A stretch of DNA of 44,227 nt, from the NCBI GenBank assembly GCA_016783425.1, contig JADHWP010000002.1, positions 1 through 44,227 of the forward strand, read 5' to 3'. This document shows, piece by piece, positions 3,501 to 27,750 of the stretch (its first letter is position 1; the number at the start of each line of letters is the position of its first letter). The notes beneath the pieces are model-generated. The model made no database searches. It was not told the origin of the DNA and saw only the letters and a program-made list of their open reading frames with translations. The DNA is from Candidatus Shapirobacteria bacterium (GTDB lineage Bacteria; Patescibacteriota; Microgenomatia; UBA12405; BS750m-G30). The translations under genes were made by a program, and so were the position numbers.

Positions 3501-3540
3501 GCGTCATTCTGATCCCGACGTTACGTCGGGGGAAGAATCT
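3501..3540. repeat. REP-like imperfect palindrome (GTCATTCTGA family)
   Basis: gcGTCATTCTgatCCCGACGttaCGTCGGGggaAGAATct. The inner stem is 3514-3520/3524-3530 and the outer arms are 3506-3510/3534-3538. It shares the GTCATTCTGA head with the elements at 17929 and 24486. Confidence 0.6.
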
Positions 3541-3576
3541 AGCGAAGCGTGCTTGGTAATCTGGTACAATATCTCC

Positions 3577-4149
3577 ATGACCAAGGCAGGTGAATTAAAC
3601 AAAGGATCTTTTTTAAACTGGAAAGGGGATCCGGTGGTGGTTTCAGATAAGGAGTTTTTTAATCCGGGCCGAGGCCACGCCGTAGTTCGGTTGAAATTAA
3701 AAAATTTAAAATCCGGAAGAGTGATCAAAGAGACTTTAATCACTGATGAAAAGGTCGAGGAAATTGAAGTTACCCATCAGCGTTTTCAGTTTTTATACTT
3801 TGACGGTCTTCAGGCGATTTTTATGGATCCGAAAAGTTTTGAGCAAACCCTTGTGGAACGGAAAATAATTGAGGAAGAGGAAAAATATTTAAAAGCAGGG
3901 GAAGACTATGGCTTATTGTTTTGGGAAAACAGGGTGATTGGGATCAGCTTGCCTAAAAAAACTGTTTTCAAAGTTAAAGAAACTGAAAAAGGAGTGCGGG
4001 GCGATACGGTTTCCGCGGCGACCAAACCAGCCACCTTAGATAATGGGTTGATAGTAAAAGTTCCTCTTTTTATAAAGATTGGAGAAGAAGTAATAATTAG
4101 TACGGAAACGGGTGAGTATTTAAGCCGGAAAAACCAAAAGAAGTTTTAA
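3577..4149 (+). CDS. efp: Elongation factor P
   Basis: Reads MTKAGELNKGSFLNWKGDPVVV...NPGRGHAVVRLKLKNLKSGR..., with about 190 aa from the ATG at 3577. The track start at 3493 adds 28 non-homologous residues. The extended -10 TGGTACAAT at 3562-3570 lies inside that extension, 6 nt before 3577. Confidence 0.9.
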   Translation: MTKAGELNKGSFLNWKGDPVVVSDKEFFNPGRGHAVVRLKLKNLKSGRVIKETLITDEKVEEIEVTHQRFQFLYFDGLQAIFMDPKSFEQTLVERKIIEEEEKYLKAGEDYGLLFWENRVIGISLPKKTVFKVKETEKGVRGDTVSAATKPATLDNGLIVKVPLFIKIGEEVIISTETGEYLSRKNQKKF

Positions 4150-23185: not shown

Positions 23186-24340
23186 TTAGCCCTTAATTAC
23201 CGCCAGGGGGGAGAGTTCGGTGATGATTTCGACCAAATCCTTTTGGTCCTCCATTACTTTACTTATATCCTTGTAGGCGCTAACCGCTTCTTCCAGATCA
23301 GACTGGTGGCGCAGAGTGTGGATAATGCTTTGGTCCTCCAGGCGCTTTATCTCTTTTTTTAAATTCAGCTCTCTGATTGCTTGTTTTCTCCCCATTTTTC
23401 GACCCGCGCCGTGGGAACAGGACAGAAAAGAGTCGGGCTTACCCTTGCCTTTGACAATATAACTTTTACTTCCCTGGGAGCCGGGAATAATACCGAGTTG
23501 TCCTTTTTTGGCGGAAGTAGCGCCTTTGCGGTGTACCATTACTTTTTTTCCAAAATGAACTTCTTCAGCCGCATAGTTATGGTGAATATCAATGGTTTGG
23601 CCAAAAGTAGTCTGGGGAATAATTTTTTGGATTATTTGTTTTATTTTTTCAAGCATCAGCGCTCTGTTCGCTTTGGCAAAATCTAAAGCAAAGTTCATGG
23701 CCGCCAAATATTCCTGGGCTTGGGGATTATTCATTGGCAAACAGGCTAGCTCTTTATCGGGTAAATTAAGATTGTACTGCTGACAATAATTTAGGGCCTG
23801 GCGGTGGTATTCTTGGGCAATTTTAAAGCCAAGGTTGCGAGAGCCGGAGTGGAGCATAATCCAGATAAATCCATCTGAACCCTTTTGAATTTCAATAAAA
23901 TGATTGCCCCCGCCCAAACTGCCCAGTTGATAGCGGGCGGAATTTAATTCTTGCTGGATAATGGGGAGATTGGGAGCGCGGTCAAACCCGCGCCATTCTT
24001 GCTTTATTTTATGATGCTTAAAGCCCAGCGGGATTGCCTTTCTAATTTGGCCCAAAATTTGTTTAAGAGTTTCTGTTTCAATTGATTTGAGATTAGTTTG
24101 AACAGCGCAAACGCCGCACCCAATATCCACGCCCACGCAGTTGGGAACCACCGTGTTTTTAGCGGCCAAAACCGCCCCAATGGGCATGCCGTACCCCTGG
24201 TGGCAATCAGGCAAAATCACAATGTGTTTGAAAGCGAAGGGTAAGTTAGCTAAGTTTTTCGCCTGTTGCAAAGCTTTTTCTTCAATATCTTCCAGCCAAG
24301 GCTTAATCGGTATTTTTTCAGTACTGATTACTTTTTTCAT
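23186..24340 (-). CDS. rtcB: RNA ligase RtcB (3'-phosphate/5'-hydroxyl)
   Basis: 384 aa with PDCHQGYGMPIG, GVDIGCG, HSGSRNLG, HHNY and CSHGAGR. TGCTATAAT (24359-24351 on the minus strand) lies 10 nt before the ATG. Confidence 0.9.
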   Translation of the reverse strand: MKKVISTEKIPIKPWLEDIEEKALQQAKNLANLPFAFKHIVILPDCHQGYGMPIGAVLAAKNTVVPNCVGVDIGCGVCAVQTNLKSIETETLKQILGQIRKAIPLGFKHHKIKQEWRGFDRAPNLPIIQQELNSARYQLGSLGGGNHFIEIQKGSDGFIWIMLHSGSRNLGFKIAQEYHRQALNYCQQYNLNLPDKELACLPMNNPQAQEYLAAMNFALDFAKANRALMLEKIKQIIQKIIPQTTFGQTIDIHHNYAAEEVHFGKKVMVHRKGATSAKKGQLGIIPGSQGSKSYIVKGKGKPDSFLSCSHGAGRKMGRKQAIRELNLKKEIKRLEDQSIIHTLRHQSDLEEAVSAYKDISKVMEDQKDLVEIITELSPLAVIKG

Positions 24341-24351
24341 TTATTTTTTAA

Positions 24352-24612
24352 TTATAGCATGTAGCTTAACGTCTCAATTGTCACCCCTTTTTAACATCTG
24401 AACTGTCCTCTCCAAATGTCATCCCCGAAATAAATTCGGGGCAGGCTCTGAACTCGTTTCAGGATCTGTTTTCTTATCACTTAAGATTCTGAACTAAATT
24501 CAGAATGACTTTTGAAACAATCTCACTAAAAAGTGCTGAACCATATTTAGAGGGTAGACAATTGAGACGTTAAATCAATAGGACAATTGAGAAGTTAAAC
24601 TACATATAGCAA
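24352..24612. repeat. Composite palindromic element: 17-24-nt inverted repeats bracketing a cluster of REP-like hairpins
   Basis: TTAACGTCTCAATTGTC (24366-24382) has a perfect reverse complement at 24557-24573. A third, near-identical inverted copy, GACAATTGAGAAGTTAAAC, lies at 24582-24600. Its flank (ctacatatagca) mirrors the rtcB promoter flank. Confidence 0.8.
24418..24509. repeat. Cluster of three REP-like hairpins
   Basis: CCCCGAA (24423-29) / TTCGGGG (24435-41). CTGAA (24448-52) / TTCAG (24458-62). ATTCTGAA (24486-93) / TTCAGAAT (24499-24506) followed by GAC. The last hairpin is the reverse-orientation homologue of 17929-17952. Confidence 0.8.
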
Positions 24613-24618
24613 TATTGG

Positions 24619-24646
24619 TTGACAGGGGGTATTTTGGTGATATAAT
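24619..24646 (+). promoter_or_regulatory. Sigma-70-type promoter of the T-box/tRNA-Trp/trpS unit
   Basis: TTGACA (24619-24624), a 16-nt spacer ending in TGa, then TATAAT (24641-24646). Confidence 0.75.
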
Positions 24647-24652
24647 ATTTTT

Positions 24653-24922
24653 AATAGCGTTGATGGGGAGGTATGGGCCCCGGAGCCCCTGAACCATGTA
24701 AGGTACAGGGCGCGCTGAAAAGGCGAAAAGATTTTTCTGATTAGCTTTTTCCGGAGAGGAATCCGTAACCAAGTTCCAGACCGATGTCACCGCAAGGTAA
24801 ACAGAGTCGGTTGTGAAGGTCCGAAGCGGTAACGTTCGGACGAAACAAGGTGGTACCGTCTTTATTTTAAAGGCCCTTGTTGGTTCCTAAATTTATTTTT
24901 GGGAGTCAGCAAGGGCTTTTTT
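24653..24922 (+). promoter_or_regulatory. T-box riboswitch leader (tRNA-sensing transcription antiterminator)
   Basis: The T-box sequence is aaACAAGGUGGUACCGUC (24844-24860). The antiterminator has helix A1 ACAAGG (24845-50) / CCUUGU (24875-80), the 7-nt bulge UGGUACC (24851-57) and helix A2 GUCUUUA (24858-64) / UAAAGGC (24868-74). A competing terminator overlaps it. Stem III is GUCCGAA (24819-25) / UUCGGAC (24835-41). A possible IIA/B pseudoknot is CGGA (24752-55) / UCCG (24762-65), with loop GGAA (24758-61) pairing to UUCC (24774-77). Stem I and the specifier are not resolved. Confidence 0.75.
24873..24922 (+). terminator. Intrinsic terminator of the T-box leader
   Basis: A stem of about 16 bp (GCCCUUGUUGGUUCCU 24873-24888 with GGGAGUCAGCAAGGGC 24901-24916, including G-U pairs) has a 12-nt loop and is followed by UUUUUU (24917-24922). 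Its 5' arm shares CCUUGU with the antiterminator. Confidence 0.8.
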
Positions 24923-24936
24923 ATTTGAAAGAACTT

Positions 24937-25007
24937 GGGAGCGTAGCTCAAGGGTAGAGTGCCCGTCTCCAAAACGGGTGATGAGGGTTCAACTCCCTCC
25001 GTTCCTA
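24937..25007 (+). tRNA. trnW: tRNA-Trp (anticodon CCA)
   Basis: Manual cloverleaf. Acceptor GGGAGCG/CGUUCCU (G1-U72 and G5-U68 wobbles). D stem GCUC/GAGU. Anticodon stem CCCGU/ACGGG with loop CUCCAAA. Variable region of 4 nt. T arm GAGGG-UUCAACU-CCCUC. Discriminator A at 25007. No encoded CCA (next bases are CTG). Confidence 0.9.
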
Positions 25008-25084
25008 CTGAAAAATGAGCGAAAGATTTAGGTCGTTACCAGATTGTGTTATTAATTCTCCTGGAAGAAAGGAGGGAGTTTGGC

Positions 25085-26479
25085 ATGGCTTTAAATTTAT
25101 TTGGAACTAAAATTGAGGTACCAGGTTTAGTCGAGGATAAAACTCTTGATTACCTGCTTATCCAGGTAGCCAAAAGGAGCAGTGAAAGAAAGATTTTGGA
25201 TGATTTTTTGGACGATCAGCGCTTGGAGGAATTAGAGGCTAAAGCTAGGGAGGCAGCCAAAGACGAAGTTGAAGATAGCAATGGGCTTAATAAAACACTA
25301 TTGTCTGGTTTTTATGTTGAAGAAATGAAAAGACAGAGATTACCTAATGGCGTTTCTTTATACCATGAGTTAATTTACCGTTTTTTAGAAAAGGAAAATC
25401 CTGATTATCGAAGATATGCGGGCTTATTAAGAAAAGGAGTGAAAGGCTCACACCGCTTATTACCTCCAGATTTTCCTTCAAGTTTTAAAAAAGCGGAAAG
25501 TATCTTGGGTGGGAAATTGCGCAGCGAGTTGGGGGAAAAGGAGCAATTAGAATATTTAACTAGAAAAGAATTTACAACCCAGTTAAGAATTATTGCCCAA
25601 AATTTATTTTTCGGGGCTAATTATGGGCTGGAAAAGGAGGATTTAATTAGGTTTTTAACGGTGATGTATGAGCTAGGAAAAATTGAAACTAGCCAGCCTA
25701 TTACTCCTTCCCGATTAAGGGGCTTGTTAGCTGAAAGCTTAAAAAATAATCAACCATTGGAAATTGTGCATATTAAAAGTTTACGTTTTACCTACCCGGG
25801 TGGGGAGAGCCTGAAGATGCTAGAGGATACTCGGGCGGCAACTCAGCTTGGCTTAAAAGGCGAGCAAAGGTTTTACCCGAGTGAAGAAATTATTTTTGAG
25901 AGGTTAACCAATCTTAGGAAAATTTTTGAACAAGTGGGCCTTAGGGCTAGGGTGACAGTTATTGTTTCTGATCCTGATTTAGATTATTGTTTTCCGCCCG
26001 GGCAGGAGTTTGTTCCTTTAGCTGATGTATCTCGGGCAAGAGTTTCTGCCGGGCGCTATCTTGAGTATTTAAAAACCAATCATCTAAAAGTAGATAATCT
26101 CTGTTCTTTAACAGAATTTTTAGAACAAACAAGTGGGGCTAATAAGTTTCGGTCTGTTTTTTCCCAGTTAGTAGATGAAGGACGAAAAGGAGGAGGGGCA
26201 ACTATTAAACCTAAGATTTTAGAAATGAGAGTTAATGACCAATTTGACCATTATCAACAAATGTTTGGAGAAAAATATACTCGGGGTTTAGCTAGGCAAA
26301 CAGCTCTGGCGCAAATTGCTAATGTTTTATCGCTTTCTGTAGTTTTTTCTTCTTTCTCCACCACTCCTCTGCTAGTTATTGATAGTCGGGGCTTTGAGGA
26401 TCAACTTATTGGTGGTTATCAACCTGATTCAGTAGTTAAATTTTTTACCCGATTTAAGGATCCAACCGGCGTTATCTAA
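25085..26479 (+). CDS. Hypothetical protein (464 aa) of the T-box/tRNA-Trp/trpS unit
   Basis: A strong ribosome-binding site AAAGGAGGG lies 8 nt before ATG 25085 (MALNLFGTKIEVPG). Coding-like sequence runs throughout. I recognise no family. The track start at 25046 is TTG without a ribosome-binding site. Confidence 0.6.
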   Translation: MALNLFGTKIEVPGLVEDKTLDYLLIQVAKRSSERKILDDFLDDQRLEELEAKAREAAKDEVEDSNGLNKTLLSGFYVEEMKRQRLPNGVSLYHELIYRFLEKENPDYRRYAGLLRKGVKGSHRLLPPDFPSSFKKAESILGGKLRSELGEKEQLEYLTRKEFTTQLRIIAQNLFFGANYGLEKEDLIRFLTVMYELGKIETSQPITPSRLRGLLAESLKNNQPLEIVHIKSLRFTYPGGESLKMLEDTRAATQLGLKGEQRFYPSEEIIFERLTNLRKIFEQVGLRARVTVIVSDPDLDYCFPPGQEFVPLADVSRARVSAGRYLEYLKTNHLKVDNLCSLTEFLEQTSGANKFRSVFSQLVDEGRKGGGATIKPKILEMRVNDQFDHYQQMFGEKYTRGLARQTALAQIANVLSLSVVFSSFSTTPLLVIDSRGFEDQLIGGYQPDSVVKFFTRFKDPTGVI

Positions 26480-26507
26480 AAATAATGTTAAAATGGGGGA
26501 GGTGAAA

Positions 26508-27497
26508 ATGAATAAGAGAAAAAGAACATTTTCGGGAATTCAGCCCACGGGGAGTTTGCATATTGGTAATTACATTGGGACAATTAAGCAATGGGTGGAA
26601 ATGCAAAAAGATCATCAGTGTATTTACTGCGTGGTTGATTTGCATGCTATTACTGTTCCTAAAAAACCAGAGGTTTTAAAGGAAAGAATTAGGGAAGTAG
26701 CGGCTTTGTTTATCGCTTGTGGAGTTGACCCGGAAAAATCAATTATCTTTATTCAATCACATAATCCCGATCATTCAGTTTTAAGTTGGATTATGGATTG
26801 TACTGCTTCCATGGGACAGCTGGAGCGAATGACCCAGTATAAGTCTAAGTCTGAAAAGCAAAAAGGCTTTGTTAGCGTAGGCCTTTTTAATTATCCGGCT
26901 TTAATGGCGGCAGACATTCTTTTGTATCAGACTGATGTGGTTCCGGTTGGGGATGATCAAAAGCAGCATGTAGAGCTAACTCGGGATTTAGCTCAGCGTT
27001 TTAATTCACGCTACGGGGAAGTTTTTACTGAGCCGGAGGTAAGTTTACAAAAAGTGGGAGCGCGAGTAATGTCTTTGCAAGATCCTAGTGCAAAGATGAG
27101 CAAGTCAGACGAAGATCCCAATGGAACCATTGATCTACTAGATTCACTTGAGGAAGTAAAGAAGAAAATAATGAGTGCGGTTACTGATTCGGGCAAAGAA
27201 ATTGTTTTTAAGAAAGAAAAGCTGGCAATTAGCAACTTATTGGGAATTTATTCTCAACTGGGAAATATTTCAATTGAGGAGTTGGAAAAAAAATATCAGG
27301 GCAAGGGGTATGGGGAGTTTAAGAAGGATTTGGTTGAGGCGGTAGTGGAGTTTCTCAAGCCTATTCAAAAAAAGTATTATCGGATTATGAAAAACCAGGA
27401 GGGATTAGAAAAGATTTTAAAGCAGGGAGGGGAAAAAGCCAGAGCGATTTCCCAAAAAACTCTAGCTGAAGTTTATAAAGTAATGGGGCTAGGATAA
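26508..27497 (+). CDS. trpS: Tryptophan--tRNA ligase
   Basis: Contains FSGIQPTGSLHIGNYIG (HIGH), VPVGDDQKQHVELTRD and KMSKS (AKMSKSDED). The GGGGGAGGTG ribosome-binding site precedes ATG 26508. Confidence 0.9.
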   Translation: MNKRKRTFSGIQPTGSLHIGNYIGTIKQWVEMQKDHQCIYCVVDLHAITVPKKPEVLKERIREVAALFIACGVDPEKSIIFIQSHNPDHSVLSWIMDCTASMGQLERMTQYKSKSEKQKGFVSVGLFNYPALMAADILLYQTDVVPVGDDQKQHVELTRDLAQRFNSRYGEVFTEPEVSLQKVGARVMSLQDPSAKMSKSDEDPNGTIDLLDSLEEVKKKIMSAVTDSGKEIVFKKEKLAISNLLGIYSQLGNISIEELEKKYQGKGYGEFKKDLVEAVVEFLKPIQKKYYRIMKNQEGLEKILKQGGEKARAISQKTLAEVYKVMGLG

Positions 27498-27750
27498 TGA
27501 CTGAAAAAACAGCTATTGCCTTAAGTGGAAATGGTTGGGGTGGAAGGAACAGGGGTGAAAGGCTGGTTGGCGAGTGTAAGGGAGTGCTGGATCCCGAGTT
27601 TTCCTTACTGGTGAACAGTAAGGAAAAAAAGCTTATACTAGAAGAAAATTAGGATAAGGGGAAAATATGAAAGAGCTAAAAAAGATACCAAAATTTAATA
27701 GTGAAGAGGAAGAAAAAAAGTTCTGGATGACTCATGATTCAACTGATTAT
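27497..27750 (+). pseudogene. Decayed BrnT/BrnA-like toxin-antitoxin remnant
   Basis: A 51-aa ORF (27497-27652) ends ...NSKEKKLILEEN, similar to the BrnT tail PSRKFTKIYLEE at 10534. The ORF starting at ATG 27667 reads MKELKKIPKFNSEEEEKKFWMTHDSTDYF, the typical N-terminus of BrnA-type antitoxins. After that it loses similarity where the convergent gene at 27747-27956 begins. Confidence 0.4.

What the first reader, a model, noticed from the sequence alone, without database searches (positions are those of the whole stretch)
24619..27497. T-box riboswitch controlling a tRNA-Trp gene, an orphan ORF and trpS in one unit
A near-consensus promoter (TTGACA-16-TGaTATAAT) is followed by a leader with a textbook T-box 3' half. 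That half comprises the GGUGGUACC motif, the 7-nt UGGUACC bulge between two helices, and a mutually exclusive 16-bp terminator with a U6 tract. Only 14 nt after the U tract a tRNA-Trp(CCA) gene begins. It is followed by a 464-aa ORF with a strong ribosome-binding site, and then by trpS. I see no separate promoter between the terminator and the tRNA. T-box leaders normally sit directly before aaRS, biosynthesis or transporter ORFs. Here the sensed tRNA species itself would be transcribed only after T-box read-through, giving an autoregulatory loop in which uncharged tRNA-Trp induces more tRNA-Trp plus its synthetase. T-boxes are described mainly in Firmicutes and a few other phyla, so one in a CPR-like genome is notable in itself.
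Basis: partly seen in the sequence, partly recalled or inferred. Interest (0 to 1): 0.8.

Follow-up and report, generated by a model that had tools for sequence, protein, structure and literature searches.

The report
T-box switch controlling its own tRNA
A tRNA-sensing RNA switch (T-box) in a tiny-genome CPR bacterium sits directly in front of the gene for the tRNA-Trp it senses, followed by an uncharacterised synthetase-like protein and the Trp-tRNA synthetase; the middle protein seems to need a ribosomal +1 frameshift at a Trp codon, so one unit may sense Trp-tRNA twice.

Summary
Window 24651-24922 is a real but divergent Trp T-box. It scores 37.6 bits on Rfam RF00230, below the gathering score of 93, with E=6e-5 for the whole window. 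Stem I is ultrashort and K-turn based, with UGG in its terminal loop. Stem II, the IIA/B pseudoknot and the antiterminator (UGGU bulge) are canonical, and a 20-bp terminator plus U6 excludes the antiterminator. Covariation across relatives supports both halves. tRNA-Trp(CCA) starts 14 nt after the U-run, and no promoter lies between. All 25 distinct loci encoding a relative of the 'orphan' were examined; 24 have tRNA-Trp directly upstream. Eleven carry this T-box, and its UGGN base tracks the tRNA discriminator. Seven instead carry a leaderless Trp-Trp leader-peptide attenuator. New findings: (1) the 'strong RBS' belongs to a conserved prfB-like +1 frameshift cassette (SD-like, 2-3 nt, GUU/CUU, UGG, C) that joins a short ORF starting just after the tRNA to the orphan ORF; (2) the orphan belongs to a Pfam-less family with a TyrRS/TrpRS/cyclodipeptide-synthase-like predicted fold; (3) a remote paralogue follows tRNA-His behind a His-specific T-box. 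All of this is computational.

The parts
24619..24646 (+). Sigma70-type promoter: TTGACA, 16 nt, TG-extended TATAAT. The likely transcription start is near 24653.
   Evidence: 12/12 matches, TG present. In the relatives, equivalent promoters occur only upstream of the T-box leaders.
24656..24686 (+). Ultrashort Stem I. K-turn-like base: GC 24657-8, bulge GUU, GA 24662-3, opposite GGA 24682-4 and GC 24685-6. Hairpin GGGG 24665-8 / CCCC 24678-81. The 9-nt terminal loop AGGUAUGGG holds the Trp specifier UGG at 24674-24676, followed by a purine.
   Evidence: Aligned end-to-end to lineage model R1. The C-stem and specifier stem covary across relatives. UGG is invariant in all nine Trp leaders and CAC takes its place in the His leader. 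Stem I is 49 nt against 87 nt in the Rfam model.
24687..24710 (+). Window-specific inserted hairpin (CCCUG...CAGGG) between the specifier hairpin and Stem II.
   Evidence: Read from the sequence. L011 and L019 carry a comparable inserted hairpin at this position; the others lack one.
24717..24751 (+). Stem II (GAAAAGGC / GCUUUUUC) with a GAAA...GAUUAG internal loop, i.e. the S-turn region.
   Evidence: Aligned to Stem II of RF00230. The relatives' Stem II covaries (helix 3).
24751..24777 (+). Stem IIA (CCGG / CCGU, with F-box-like CCGUAA) and the IIB pseudoknot (loop GGAA 24758-61 with UUCC 24774-77).
   Evidence: helix 4. IIB was read from the sequence. In the relatives the 2-3 bp IIB shows compensatory changes (GC/GC, AC/GU in L004, GU/AC in L018; sequences), counted by hand.
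24780..24811 (+). Lineage-specific conserved hairpin between IIA/B and Stem III (ACCGA / UCGGU, internal loop UGUC...AGAG).
   Evidence: helix 5; 4 of 9 pairs with double-sided changes. It is not part of the Rfam model.
24818..24841 (+). Stem III.
   Evidence: Aligned to Stem III of RF00230; folds.
24846..24879 (+). Antiterminator. A1 CAAGG/CCUUG, 7-nt bulge UGGUACC (UGGU 24851-24854 pairs with the ACCA end of tRNA-Trp), A2 GUCUU/AAGGC.
   Evidence: Covariation on A3: 93.9% paired, 7 of 11 pairs with double-sided changes, 0 of 500 shuffles as high.
24871..24922 (+). Intrinsic terminator (20-pair stem, then U6) that excludes the antiterminator.
   Evidence: The relatives' equivalent terminators fold at -13.5 to -44.6 kcal/mol (six of nine leaders; the other three were cut short by the script).
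24937..25007 (+). tRNA-Trp (anticodon CCA), discriminator A73 at 25007, CCA not encoded.
25015..25083 (+). Short frame-0 ORF (MSERFRSLPDCVINSPGRKEGV-W). It starts 8 nt after the tRNA without an SD and ends on the frameshift cassette: SD-like AAGGAGG 25069-75, GA, GUU 25078-80, UGG 25081-83, C 25084. Read in frame 0 it stops at 25108-10.
   Evidence: Homologous ORF and cassette occur in 15 of 15 loci plus L024 and L026. prfB motif definition from PMC12421855.
25082..26479 (+). The 'orphan' ORF in the +1 frame (GGC 25082; ATG 25085 is also usable in this window). It encodes a Pfam-less protein with a class-Ic aaRS / cyclodipeptide-synthase-like predicted fold.
26493..27497 (+). trpS, tryptophan--tRNA ligase. 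The likely start is ATG 26508, behind GGGGGAGGTG.

Best explanation
Window 24619-27497 is one transcription unit, gated by a divergent Trp-specific T-box riboswitch that works by transcription attenuation.

1. The leader binds tRNA-Trp through a UGG specifier. The specifier sits in the terminal loop of an ultrashort, K-turn-based Stem I, backed by Stem II and the IIA/B pseudoknot.
2. The bulge UGGU tests the tRNA's free ACCA end. Uncharged tRNA stabilises the antiterminator. Otherwise the 20-bp terminator plus U6 stops RNA polymerase.
3. Read-through first transcribes the gene for the sensed ligand, tRNA-Trp(CCA). The tRNA would be cut out by RNase P and a 3' endonuclease.
4. That cut would leave an mRNA whose AUG (25015) lies a few nucleotides from the new 5' end.
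5. Ribosomes would translate about 22 codons and reach a prfB-like cassette (SD-like AAGGAGG, GA, GUU, UGG, C). If charged Trp-tRNA is scarce, the A site stays empty on UGG and the ribosome slips +1 into the 464-aa ORF. If it is plentiful, translation ends nine codons later. In this window ATG 25085 also allows ordinary initiation.
6. trpS follows with its own SD.

The net effect is that a fall in tRNA-Trp charging raises tRNA-Trp, TrpRS and a synthetase-like protein of unknown activity.

Shown by computation: the RNA architecture, its covariation, the conserved gene order, the UGGN-discriminator match, the frame relationships, and the coding signal after the frameshift site. Inferred: co-transcription, tRNA processing, leaderless-like initiation, frameshifting and its dependence on Trp-tRNA, and the protein's function.
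For: T-box identity:
- RF00230 hits over the full model in the window (37.6 bits, E=6e-5 window-wide).
- It also hits the same position before tRNA-Trp in L018 (54.6 bits), L013, L007, L006 and L004.
- Antiterminator: 94% paired, 7 of 11 pairs compensatory, 0 of 500 shuffles as high, and slid controls at 22-57% paired.
- 5' domain: 96% paired, 18 of 25 pairs compensatory.
- Lineage model R1, built from five relatives, recovers the held-out leaders L011, L004 and L019 (53-76 bits). It aligns the window end-to-end, though weakly (17 bits, E about 0.04).

The tRNA as target:
- tRNA-Trp lies directly upstream of the family protein in 24 of the 25 distinct loci (27 fetched).
- The tRNA begins 0-14 nt after the terminator's U-run in the nine T-box leaders measured.
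- Sigma70-like sites occur only upstream of the leaders.
- UGGN against the discriminator gives U:A seven times, C:G three times and U:G once, all compatible. C occurs only with G73.
- Sister loci replace the T-box with a leaderless Trp-Trp leader peptide and a terminator. In 3 of 6 the predicted fold switches from terminator to antiterminator when a ribosome footprint is placed on the first UGG.
- A second unit in L004 has a T-box with a CAC specifier and a UGGG bulge, then tRNA-His with C73, then a remote paralogue (hhalign probability 89%, E 2e-6).

Frameshift:
- The cassette and frame relationship hold in 15 of 15 loci, plus L024 and L026.
- In 8 loci the +1 frame is closed by a stop 2 nt before the UGG codon. 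In 7 of these the next canonical start is 37 nt downstream, inside conserved residues.
- Those residues show a coding signature, with differences by codon position of 0.44, 0.37 and 0.63.
- They form a confident beta-hairpin in the structure model (E2-5, E8-11).
- The L005 site CGGGGG UAU CUU UGG G equals the prfB consensus AGGGGG-N3-CUU-UGA-C with UGG in place of UGA.
- In L023 the N-terminal extension is fused in frame.
Against: - There are no expression data. Co-transcription, read-through control and tRNA excision are inferred from layout alone.
- The T-box fails Rfam's gathering score and lacks the distal Stem I platform. A review states that platform is generally required by transcriptional T-boxes (PMC7583486), so tRNA capture may work differently or less well here.
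- R1 matches the window only weakly (17 bits).
- The A5 alignment was fitted to the model, which inflates its pair counts.
- A weak embedded promoter cannot be excluded (TTGGGA 24899-24904, 17 nt, TATTTG 24922-24927, 3 of 6 in the -10 hexamer; my own reading).
- In L016 about 70 nt containing a TTGACA separate the terminator from the tRNA.
- This window has ATG 25085 nine nt after the SD-like element, so frameshifting is not needed here.
- The T-box-type cassettes use GUU-U and a 2-nt spacer after AGGAGG, which departs from the prfB optimum.
- The coding signature of the short frame-0 ORF itself is modest (0.42, 0.33, 0.50).
- L025 shows no cassette.
- L014 has a second, different tRNA-Trp (G73), so the regulated copy may be a specialised one.
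Confidence: 0.78

Rival explanations
1. The T-box is real, but the tRNA-Trp gene is transcribed independently from a weak promoter embedded in or just after the terminator. On this view the T-box only modulates extra read-through into the tRNA, the ORF and trpS, so there is no real autoregulatory loop.
For: A poor sigma70-like match overlaps the terminator (TTGGGA 24899-24904, 17 nt, TATTTG 24922-24927; read). L016 has a TTGACA-containing 70-nt spacer between terminator and tRNA. tRNA genes are normally expressed strongly and constitutively (general knowledge).
Against: The consensus scan finds no promoter between terminator and tRNA in any of 15 loci. The tRNA starts 0-14 nt after the U-run in the nine T-box leaders measured, and the terminator sequences differ between loci, so no embedded promoter is conserved. 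Two unrelated attenuator types both sit immediately upstream of the tRNA.
Confidence: 0.1
2. The unit is not housekeeping. The regulated tRNA-Trp (mostly A73), its TrpRS (fused in some genomes to a YbaK-like editing domain) and the cyclodipeptide-synthase/aaRS-like protein would form a dedicated module. That module would supply and consume Trp-tRNA for a non-ribosomal, tRNA-dependent reaction, with the T-box balancing the supply.
For: The best fold matches include cyclodipeptide synthases, which use aminoacyl-tRNAs, and PvcA/IsnA. The family protein is glued to a cognate tRNA gene (Trp, and His for a paralogue). L014 has a second, different tRNA-Trp with the bacterial-type G73. TrpRS carries a tRNA_edit domain in L009, L014, L016 and L018.
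Against: T-boxes, Trp-Trp leader peptides and a UGG-dependent frameshift all switch on when charged Trp-tRNA is scarce. That logic suits a supplier of charged tRNA rather than a consumer. The leader peptides and the frameshift depend on ribosomal decoding, so the sensed pool is the translational one. The fold matches are weak (E 5e-4 to 5e-2, TM about 0.5 on the target). Some loci lack an adjacent trpS (L010 and L020).
Confidence: 0.25
3. No frameshift occurs. The short ORF after the tRNA is a regulatory upstream ORF whose Trp codon and SD-like element control initiation of the main ORF by coupling or occlusion. The main ORF would start at ATG 25085 here, and at a downstream or non-canonical start in relatives.
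For: Window, L019 and L014 have an ATG 9-12 nt after the SD-like element. The codon-position signal in the short ORF is modest. L025 has no cassette.
Against: Seven loci have no canonical start before conserved, evidently translated residues, and the +1 frame is closed by a stop just before the site. In the leader-peptide group the nearest ATG lies 16-22 nt from the SD-like element (my count sequences), which is too far for normal initiation. The cassette reproduces the prfB motif element by element. The N-terminal peptide is conserved across groups that share about 40% identity.
Confidence: 0.25
4. The T-box match is a degenerate relic or a chance resemblance, and the hairpin plus U-run is just the terminator of an upstream transcript.
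For: The score is 37.6 bits against a gathering score of 93, and the default scan finds nothing.
Against: E=6e-5 window-wide. Independent hits fall at the same position in five relatives. Compensatory changes occur in every helix. The specifier and UGGN match the adjacent tRNA. A 12/12 promoter sits directly upstream, and the upstream gene rtcB is divergent.
Confidence: 0.02

Closest known systems
Transcriptional (class I) T-box riboswitches of Firmicutes, e.g. B. subtilis tyrS, glyQS and trpS leaders (Rfam RF00230)
   Same: They share the T-box sequence AAGGUGGUACC, an antiterminator with a 7-nt UGGN bulge, and a competing intrinsic terminator. They also share Stem II, the IIA/B pseudoknot with its F-box, Stem III, a K-turn at the base of Stem I, a specifier codon followed by a purine, the UGGN-discriminator match, and an aaRS gene in the operon.
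   Different: Stem I is ultrashort and lacks the distal platform that docks the tRNA elbow. The specifier sits in a terminal loop rather than an internal one. There is an extra conserved hairpin after IIA/B. The score is below the Rfam gathering score. The first regulated gene is the ligand tRNA itself. The host is a CPR/Microgenomates bacterium.
Actinobacterial ileS T-boxes with intermediate or 'ultrashort' Stem I (class II; Sherwood et al. 2015, as reviewed in PMC7583486)
   Same: Stem I is truncated and lacks the elbow-binding platform, so binding relies on Stem II and IIA/B.
   Different: Those act on translation by sequestering the SD. This one has a clear intrinsic terminator, so it combines a short Stem I with a transcriptional platform. 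The review describes that combination as atypical.
prfB (RF2) autoregulatory +1 programmed frameshift (PMC12421855)
   Same: Both have an SD-like element about six nt before the A-site codon, a slippery NUU-U (CUU-U in five loci), a following C, and a short frame-0 product unless the A-site codon is decoded slowly. The main ORF lies in the +1 frame.
   Different: The A-site codon is the sense codon UGG, so the limiting factor would be charged Trp-tRNA rather than a release factor. Most T-box-type loci use GUU-U with a 2-nt spacer after AGGAGG. The gene product is not the factor that decodes the codon. From general knowledge, the yeast Ty1 CUU-AGG-C 'hungry codon' site is the nearest sense-codon analogue.
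Ribosome-mediated trp-type attenuation (E. coli trpL; from general knowledge also Streptomyces trpS1)
   Same: The sister loci (L002, L003, L005, L009, L016, L023) have a short leader peptide with tandem Trp codons and alternative 1:2, 2:3 and 3:4 pairings before a terminator.
   Different: The leader peptides appear leaderless, with the ATG 6-9 nt after the -10 box. They precede a tRNA gene. This type is not present in the window itself.
Class Ic aaRS catalytic domains and their derivatives (cyclodipeptide synthases, PvcA/IsnA)
   Same: The predicted fold of the C-terminal half of the 464-aa protein matches these (Foldseek E 5e-4 to 5e-2, TM about 0.5 on the target).
   Different: No sequence-level similarity was found. 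No HIGH or KMSKS motifs were recognised. The protein has a large N-terminal helical domain.

Membership tests
T-box leader (RF00230) | Covariance-model match at or above Rfam's gathering score (93 bits) | tested here: not met
   The score is 37.6 bits. It is nevertheless significant: E=7e-7 locally and 6e-5 window-wide. Relatives score 36-55 bits.
T-box leader (RF00230) | Conserved T-box sequence forming an antiterminator with a 7-nt bulge that carries UGGN | tested here: met
   AAGGUGGUACC at 24847-24857. The A1-bulge-A2 fold is the MFE in 9 of 9 leaders. 94% of cells are paired and 7 of 11 pairs are compensatory.
T-box leader (RF00230) | A mutually exclusive intrinsic terminator (transcriptional class) | tested here: met
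   Stem of 20 pairs at 24871-24918, then U6. It overlaps the 3' strands of A2 and A1.
T-box leader (RF00230) | Specifier codon in Stem I that matches the amino acid of the regulated genes, followed by a purine | tested here: met
   UGG at 24674-24676 followed by G. UGG is invariant in the nine Trp leaders, and CAC-G takes its place in the His leader. Its placement in a terminal loop is non-canonical.
T-box leader (RF00230) | UGGN complementary to the discriminator base of the cognate tRNA | tested here: met
   UGGU with A73 in the window. Across 11 leaders: U:A seven times, C:G three times, U:G once. The His leader has UGGG with C73.
T-box leader (RF00230) | Long Stem I whose distal interdigitated T-loop platform binds the tRNA elbow | tested here: not met
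   The Stem I interior is 49 nt against 87 nt in the model. In the relatives Stem I is a 5-bp hairpin on a K-turn.
T-box leader (RF00230) | K-turn at the Stem I base, Stem II, and the IIA/B pseudoknot with F-box | tested here: met
   GA and GGA motifs at 24662-3 and 24682-4. Stem II and IIA align to the Rfam model. These helices covary. The pseudoknot pairing was counted by hand only.
T-box leader (RF00230) | tRNA-dependent, charging-sensitive antitermination | not testable with these tools
   This needs in vitro transcription or in vivo reporters.
prfB-type +1 programmed ribosomal frameshift | Internal SD-like element about six nt upstream of the A-site codon | tested here: met
   AAGGAGG at 25069-75, with UGG at 25081. 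The element is present in 15 of 15 loci plus L024 and L026. Definition from PMC12421855.
prfB-type +1 programmed ribosomal frameshift | Slippery CUU-U in the P site | tested here: inconclusive
   CUU-U in L003, L005, L009, L024 and L026. GUU-U in the window and the T-box group. CCU-U in L002, and CCC-U in L016.
prfB-type +1 programmed ribosomal frameshift | The A-site codon is an in-frame stop (UGA) read by the gene's own product | tested here: not met
   The A-site codon is UGG (Trp) in every locus. It therefore works like prfB but is not a member.
prfB-type +1 programmed ribosomal frameshift | The main ORF continues in the +1 frame and cannot be reached by ordinary initiation | tested here: inconclusive
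   Met in seven relatives: a stop closes the +1 frame 2 nt before the site, and the next start is 37 nt on, inside conserved residues. Not met in the window, where ATG 25085 is available.
Class Ic aminoacyl-tRNA synthetase / cyclodipeptide synthase superfamily (for the 464-aa protein) | Rossmann-type catalytic fold shared by TyrRS, TrpRS and cyclodipeptide synthases | tested here: inconclusive
   AF2 model with pLDDT 88.7. Foldseek top hits are TyrRS, PvcA/IsnA, cyclodipeptide synthases and TrpRS, at E 5e-4 to 5e-2 and TM about 0.5 on the target.
Class Ic aminoacyl-tRNA synthetase / cyclodipeptide synthase superfamily (for the 464-aa protein) | Sequence-level family membership (Pfam tRNA-synt_1b, cyclodipeptide synthase, or PvcA models; HIGH and KMSKS motifs) | tested here: not met
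   There is no Pfam or NCBIfam hit for the protein or for 55 family members. The PDB profile search found nothing. hhalign against the window's TrpRS gave 0.5% probability.

The most novel reading that the evidence does not exclude
CPR/Microgenomates bacteria carry 'tRNA-first' operons. A cognate T-box, or a leader-peptide attenuator, gates transcription of its own ligand tRNA (Trp, and His in a paralogous unit). Excision of the tRNA creates a near-leaderless mRNA. A prfB-like +1 frameshift at a sense Trp codon then acts as a second, translational sensor of charged Trp-tRNA. That sensor controls synthesis of a previously unrecognised family of class-Ic-aaRS-fold proteins dedicated to that tRNA. 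This would be the first natural bacterial frameshift that reads aminoacyl-tRNA supply, and the first T-box autoregulating its own ligand.
Probability: 0.4. Interest if true: 0.93.

Novelty: new variant of a known kind. Interest (0 to 1): 0.85.

Why it matters
T-boxes are the classic tRNA-sensing riboswitches, and their known targets are aaRS, biosynthesis, transport and regulator genes. I found no report of a T-box whose immediate target is the tRNA it senses, nor of T-boxes in CPR bacteria (literature searches). The searchable library is incomplete, so this is absence of evidence only.

If confirmed, this would matter in four ways:
1. The feedback topology is new. Uncharged tRNA would induce more of itself together with its synthetase.
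2. A transcriptional T-box can apparently work without the Stem I elbow platform, which is currently thought to be needed for fast co-transcriptional tRNA capture.
3. The prfB-like cassette with UGG would be a natural 'hungry-codon' frameshift used as an amino-acid sensor. It is directly testable with reporters.
4. The system points to a function for an uncharacterised, synthetase-like protein family that is physically tied to tRNA-Trp and tRNA-His genes. The hosts have minimal genomes, and their amino-acid and tRNA economy is poorly understood.

There is also a practical consequence. Gene callers mis-start these ORFs, and default Rfam thresholds miss these T-boxes.

Tried and rejected
- The default Rfam gathering scan found only the tRNA. 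The permissive scans were needed.
- MAFFT on the whole leaders (A2) misaligned the 5' half, so I did not use it for structure. I used domain alignments and a covariance model instead (A3, A4, R1, A5).
- The MFE fold of the whole leader pairs the 5' end with the T-box region. I judged that uninformative about the co-transcriptional T-box fold.
- I considered canonical placement of the specifier on the 3' side of a long Stem I. That region contains UAC-A, which would read as Tyr. I rejected it because relatives lack that hairpin and all keep UGG in the terminal loop.
- I considered initiation of the relatives' ORF at the UUG inside GUUUGG. It is in the wrong frame.
- Sequence searches for the protein's function found nothing: Pfam, NCBIfam, a PDB profile search and hhalign against TrpRS.
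- The second large protein search, with the family alignment, added only one new eligible member.
- My first U-run script truncated some terminators, so I redid the short leaders with full-length sequences.
- Three of the six short leaders (L001, L002, L016) did not show a clean terminator-to-antiterminator switch by MFE.
- L025 showed no frameshift cassette.
- Literature searches for a T-box before a tRNA gene, or T-boxes in CPR bacteria, returned nothing relevant.

Full report
**1. The observation**

- A 12/12 sigma70-type promoter with a TG extension lies at 24619-24646.
- The Rfam T-box model RF00230 matches 24651-24881 over its whole length at 37.6 bits. That is below the gathering score of 93, so the default scan reports only the tRNA.
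- The match is still significant: E=7e-7 for the 541-nt region and E=6e-5 for the whole window, both strands, all 4227 families. It is the only such hit in the window.
- The antiterminator has helix A1 at 24846-50/24875-79, the bulge UGGUACC at 24851-57, and helix A2 at 24858-62/24870-74. It is the minimum-free-energy fold of the isolated domain.
- A 20-pair hairpin at 24871-24918 followed by T6 overlaps the antiterminator's 3' strands.
- tRNA-Trp(CCA) occupies 24937-25007, 14 nt after the U-run.
- A 464-aa ORF without any Pfam or NCBIfam match follows, then trpS (TIGR00233, 386 bits).

**2. Is it really a T-box?**

I fetched every locus I could find that encodes a relative of the 464-aa protein. 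This gave 27 loci, 25 of them distinct.

Nine distinct leaders, the window included, carry AAGGUGG-N-A-N-C followed by a terminator directly before a tRNA-Trp gene. L024 and L025 add two more whose 5' ends are cut off by the contig edge. RF00230 independently hits five of the relatives at the equivalent position, at 36-55 bits and E 3e-9 to 2e-4.

Covariation supports both halves of the riboswitch.
- Antiterminator domain: 93.9% of cells pair and 7 of 11 pairs show changes on both sides. No shuffle out of 500 reaches the observed covariation, and sliding the partners drops pairing to 22-57%.
- 5' domain: I built a covariance model (R1) from five relatives. It recovers the held-out leaders L011, L004 and L019 at 53-76 bits. 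It aligns the window end-to-end, but weakly, at 17 bits and E about 0.04.
- On the resulting alignment 95.8% of cells pair and 18 of 25 pairs have double-sided changes. That alignment was fitted to the model, which inflates the counts.

The architecture runs as follows:
- a K-turn-like base (GA opposite GGA);
- a 4-7-bp hairpin whose 7-10-nt terminal loop holds an invariant UGG followed by a purine (window 24674-76);
- Stem II;
- Stem IIA with an F-box-like CCGUAA, plus a short IIB pseudoknot (window GGAA 24758-61 with UUCC 24774-77);
- a lineage-specific conserved hairpin;
- Stem III, the antiterminator and the terminator.

Stem I lacks the distal platform altogether. A review says this 'ultrashort' state is typical of translational actinobacterial T-boxes. 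It adds that transcriptional T-boxes generally need the long Stem I (PMC7583486). So this is a variant that combines a short Stem I with a transcriptional expression platform.

**3. Is the tRNA gene the regulated target?**

- In 24 of 25 distinct loci a tRNA-Trp(CCA) gene lies immediately upstream of the family protein. L026/L027 is the exception.
- In the nine T-box leaders measured the tRNA begins 0-14 nt after the U-run.
- A consensus promoter scan of the 340 nt before each tRNA finds sites only upstream of the leaders, never between terminator and tRNA (for the window).
- The variable base of the UGGN bulge matches the discriminator of the adjacent tRNA in all eleven leaders: U with A73 seven times, C with G73 three times, U with G73 once. 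C occurs only with G73.
- Seven sister loci have no T-box. A short leader sits in the same place and encodes an apparently leaderless peptide, followed by a terminator. Six of these peptides have tandem Trp codons (for example MFNIFKTWWHFN* and MKANSSTVFWWCL*); L001's has a single Trp (METLKIISKYWYYANN*).
- In three of the six I folded, the predicted structure switches. It goes from '1:2 pairing plus terminator' to an antiterminator (GCGGGAG:CUCCCGC) once a ribosome footprint is placed on the first UGG.

Two mechanistically unrelated sensors of Trp-tRNA charging thus occupy the same position in front of the same tRNA gene. I regard this as the strongest argument that attenuation control of the tRNA is selected.

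A second case turned up in L004. Model R1 hits the minus strand at 4752-4642 (34 bits, E 4e-6). The specifier hairpin there has the loop GUCACGA, where CAC is a His codon. The bulge reads UGGG, which matches C73. Downstream lie a 92-aa ORF, tRNA-His(GUG) and a 539-aa ORF that begins at an ATG 7 nt after the tRNA.

**4. The ORF after the tRNA: a probable +1 frameshift**

Reading the tRNA-ORF spacers, I found that an ATG 3-20 nt after the discriminator, with no SD, opens a 19-31-codon ORF in all 15 distinct loci analysed. That ORF runs in frame onto an SD-like element, 2-3 nt, GUU/CUU/CCU/CCC, UGG, and usually C.

The conserved N-terminus of the family protein (G-x-x-[IV]-N-x-[FL]-G...P) continues in the +1 frame.
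- In eight loci that frame is closed by a stop 2 nt before the UGG codon.
- In seven of them the first canonical start is 37 nt further on, inside conserved residues.
- Those residues carry a coding signature, with differences by codon position of 0.44, 0.37 and 0.63.
- They form a confident beta-hairpin in the structure model.

The L005 site, CGGGGG UAU CUU UGG G, is the prfB consensus with UGG in place of UGA. That consensus is an AGGGGG SD-like element six nt before the stop, the slippery run CUUU, UGA, then C (PMC12421855).

More distant members agree.
- L024 (32% identity) has AAGGGG AGG CUU UGG C.
- L026, which lacks the tRNA, has GGAG UGU CUU UGG C.
- In L023 the N-terminal extension is simply in frame.
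- The His paralogue starts directly at the post-tRNA ATG.

My reading is that tRNA 3' processing creates a near-leaderless mRNA. A slow-to-decode UGG then drives a +1 slip, and so acts as a translational sensor of charged Trp-tRNA.

In the window the cassette is AAGGAGG 25069-75, GA, GUU 25078-80, UGG 25081-83, C. However, ATG 25085 lies in the +1 frame nine nt after the SD-like element, so ordinary initiation is also possible here.

This part is inference. The short ORF's own coding signal is modest, GUU-U and the spacing are not prfB-optimal, and L025 lacks the cassette.

**5. The protein**

- An AlphaFold2 model built on 15 sequences is confident (pLDDT 88.7, pTM 0.83).
- The best Foldseek matches in the PDB are TyrRS, PvcA/IsnA, cyclodipeptide synthases and TrpRS (E 5e-4 to 5e-2, TM about 0.5 normalised on the target). 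This points to a class-Ic-aaRS-type Rossmann fold in the C-terminal half.
- No sequence-level link was found.
- The family has 81 representatives at 50% clustering, and none of the 55 scanned hits any Pfam model.
- The 539-aa protein after tRNA-His is a remote homologue (hhalign probability 89%, E 2e-6, 240 columns).

The family therefore seems to comprise amino-acid- or tRNA-specific paralogues tied to cognate tRNA genes. Its activity is unknown. The induction logic, which switches on when charging is low, fits a role in supplying charged tRNA better than one in consuming it. A dedicated tRNA-dependent enzyme module is not excluded, for three reasons:
- L014 has a second tRNA-Trp with G73.
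- The regulated tRNA mostly has A73.
- TrpRS is fused to a YbaK-like editing domain in four loci.

**6. Comparison with what is known, and novelty**

The leader works like a T-box and passes most defining tests. It fails the Rfam threshold and lacks the long Stem I.

I found no precedent for a T-box whose first target is its own ligand tRNA, and none for T-boxes in CPR bacteria, in the searchable literature. That library is incomplete.

The frameshift cassette works like prfB, but its A-site codon is a sense codon, so it is not a member of that class.

Overall this is a new variant of known kinds, arranged in a new way. The host lineage is inferred from the relatives' names: Candidatus Daviesbacteria and Shapirobacteria, in the Microgenomates/Patescibacteria group.

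**7. Verdict**

| Claim | Confidence |
|---|---|
| T-box identity | about 0.95 |
| tRNA-Trp is under T-box attenuation control | about 0.8 |
| +1 frameshifting in the family | about 0.6 |
| +1 frameshifting contributing in this window | about 0.5 |
| Protein function | open |

No step has experimental support yet.

Noticed in passing
L004 minus strand 4790-2485: A second 'tRNA-first' unit. It has a promoter and a T-box-like leader (R1 hit 4752-4642; specifier loop GUCACGA, i.e. CAC for His; bulge AUGGGAC, i.e. UGGG matching C73). Then come a 92-aa ORF, tRNA-His(GUG) at 4186-4110, and a 539-aa ORF starting 7 nt after the tRNA. That ORF is a remote homologue of the Trp-linked protein. The 3' half of the leader is unusual: the UGGG lies in the 5' arm of a GGGACC/GGUCCC hairpin followed by U6, and a second long terminator follows.
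   Followed up: partly
window 24359-24605: A 24-nt motif, GACAATTGAGA(A/C)GTTAAAC(TACAT), containing the palindrome CAATTG. It occurs twice as a direct repeat just upstream of the -35 box (24557-74 and 24582-99) and once inverted next to the divergent rtcB gene (24359-88). It could be an operator for a shared regulator of rtcB and the T-box operon, or the ends of a small inserted element.
   Followed up: partly
window 23186-24340 (minus strand): An RtcB RNA ligase gene (PF01139, E 3e-116) is transcribed divergently from the T-box/tRNA-Trp unit. RtcB repairs and splices tRNAs, so the neighbourhood is tRNA-themed.
   Followed up: no
L004 775-800; L006 3747-3768; L007, L011, L013, L014, L018, L019 at equivalent positions: In all eight relatives, but not in the window, Stem III is a GC-rich hairpin followed by U6 and the conserved motif AAUGG. 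It looks like an extra intrinsic terminator or pause site inside the leader. It is enclosed by a long-range helix that competes with a local hairpin (e.g. L004 GAAUAAG/CUUAUUC against UUAACUUAUU/AAUAAGUUAA). There may be a second decision point before the T-box antiterminator.
   Followed up: no
L006 about 3540-3600 and L013 about 2500-2560: Just upstream of the T-box promoter is another promoter-like site and a small ORF with tandem Trp codons (MCKKIQ(K/E)ILLKWWKKLTGK*). It may be a remnant or an extra leader-peptide sensor in tandem with the T-box.
   Followed up: no
L014 652-723: A second, quite different tRNA-Trp(CCA) gene with the bacterial-type discriminator G73. It sits in a tRNA cluster 1.1 kb upstream of the T-box-controlled tRNA-Trp (A73). 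The regulated tRNA may therefore be an additional isodecoder in some genomes.
   Followed up: partly
L009 3708-5189; L014 3408-4850; L016 4060-5523; L018 3198-4664: In these relatives the TrpRS downstream of the family protein is 480-493 aa. It carries an N-terminal YbaK/ProX-type aminoacyl-tRNA editing domain (PF04073) fused to the class-I catalytic domain, an unusual fusion for TrpRS. The window's TrpRS (334 aa) lacks it.
   Followed up: partly
L010 1740-2600 and L020 3081-4739: In two lineages the family protein is not followed by trpS; the next gene is on the opposite strand. The conserved core of the unit is therefore leader, tRNA-Trp and family protein. trpS is a frequent but not obligatory member.
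   Followed up: no
L018 14-211 (minus strand): A group I catalytic intron match (RF00028, 68.4 bits, above the gathering score) lies about 1.2 kb upstream of the T-box unit.
   Followed up: no
L002, L003, L005, L009, L016, L023, L026 leaders: The leader peptides start 6-9 nt after the -10 box with no SD, and the main ORFs start a few nt after the tRNA 3' end. Leaderless or near-leaderless initiation may be common in these CPR lineages.
   Followed up: no
window 27497-27652: A 51-aa ORF overlaps the trpS stop codon (ATGA). It was not examined, and no terminator was seen right after trpS, so the 3' end of the unit is undefined.
   Followed up: no
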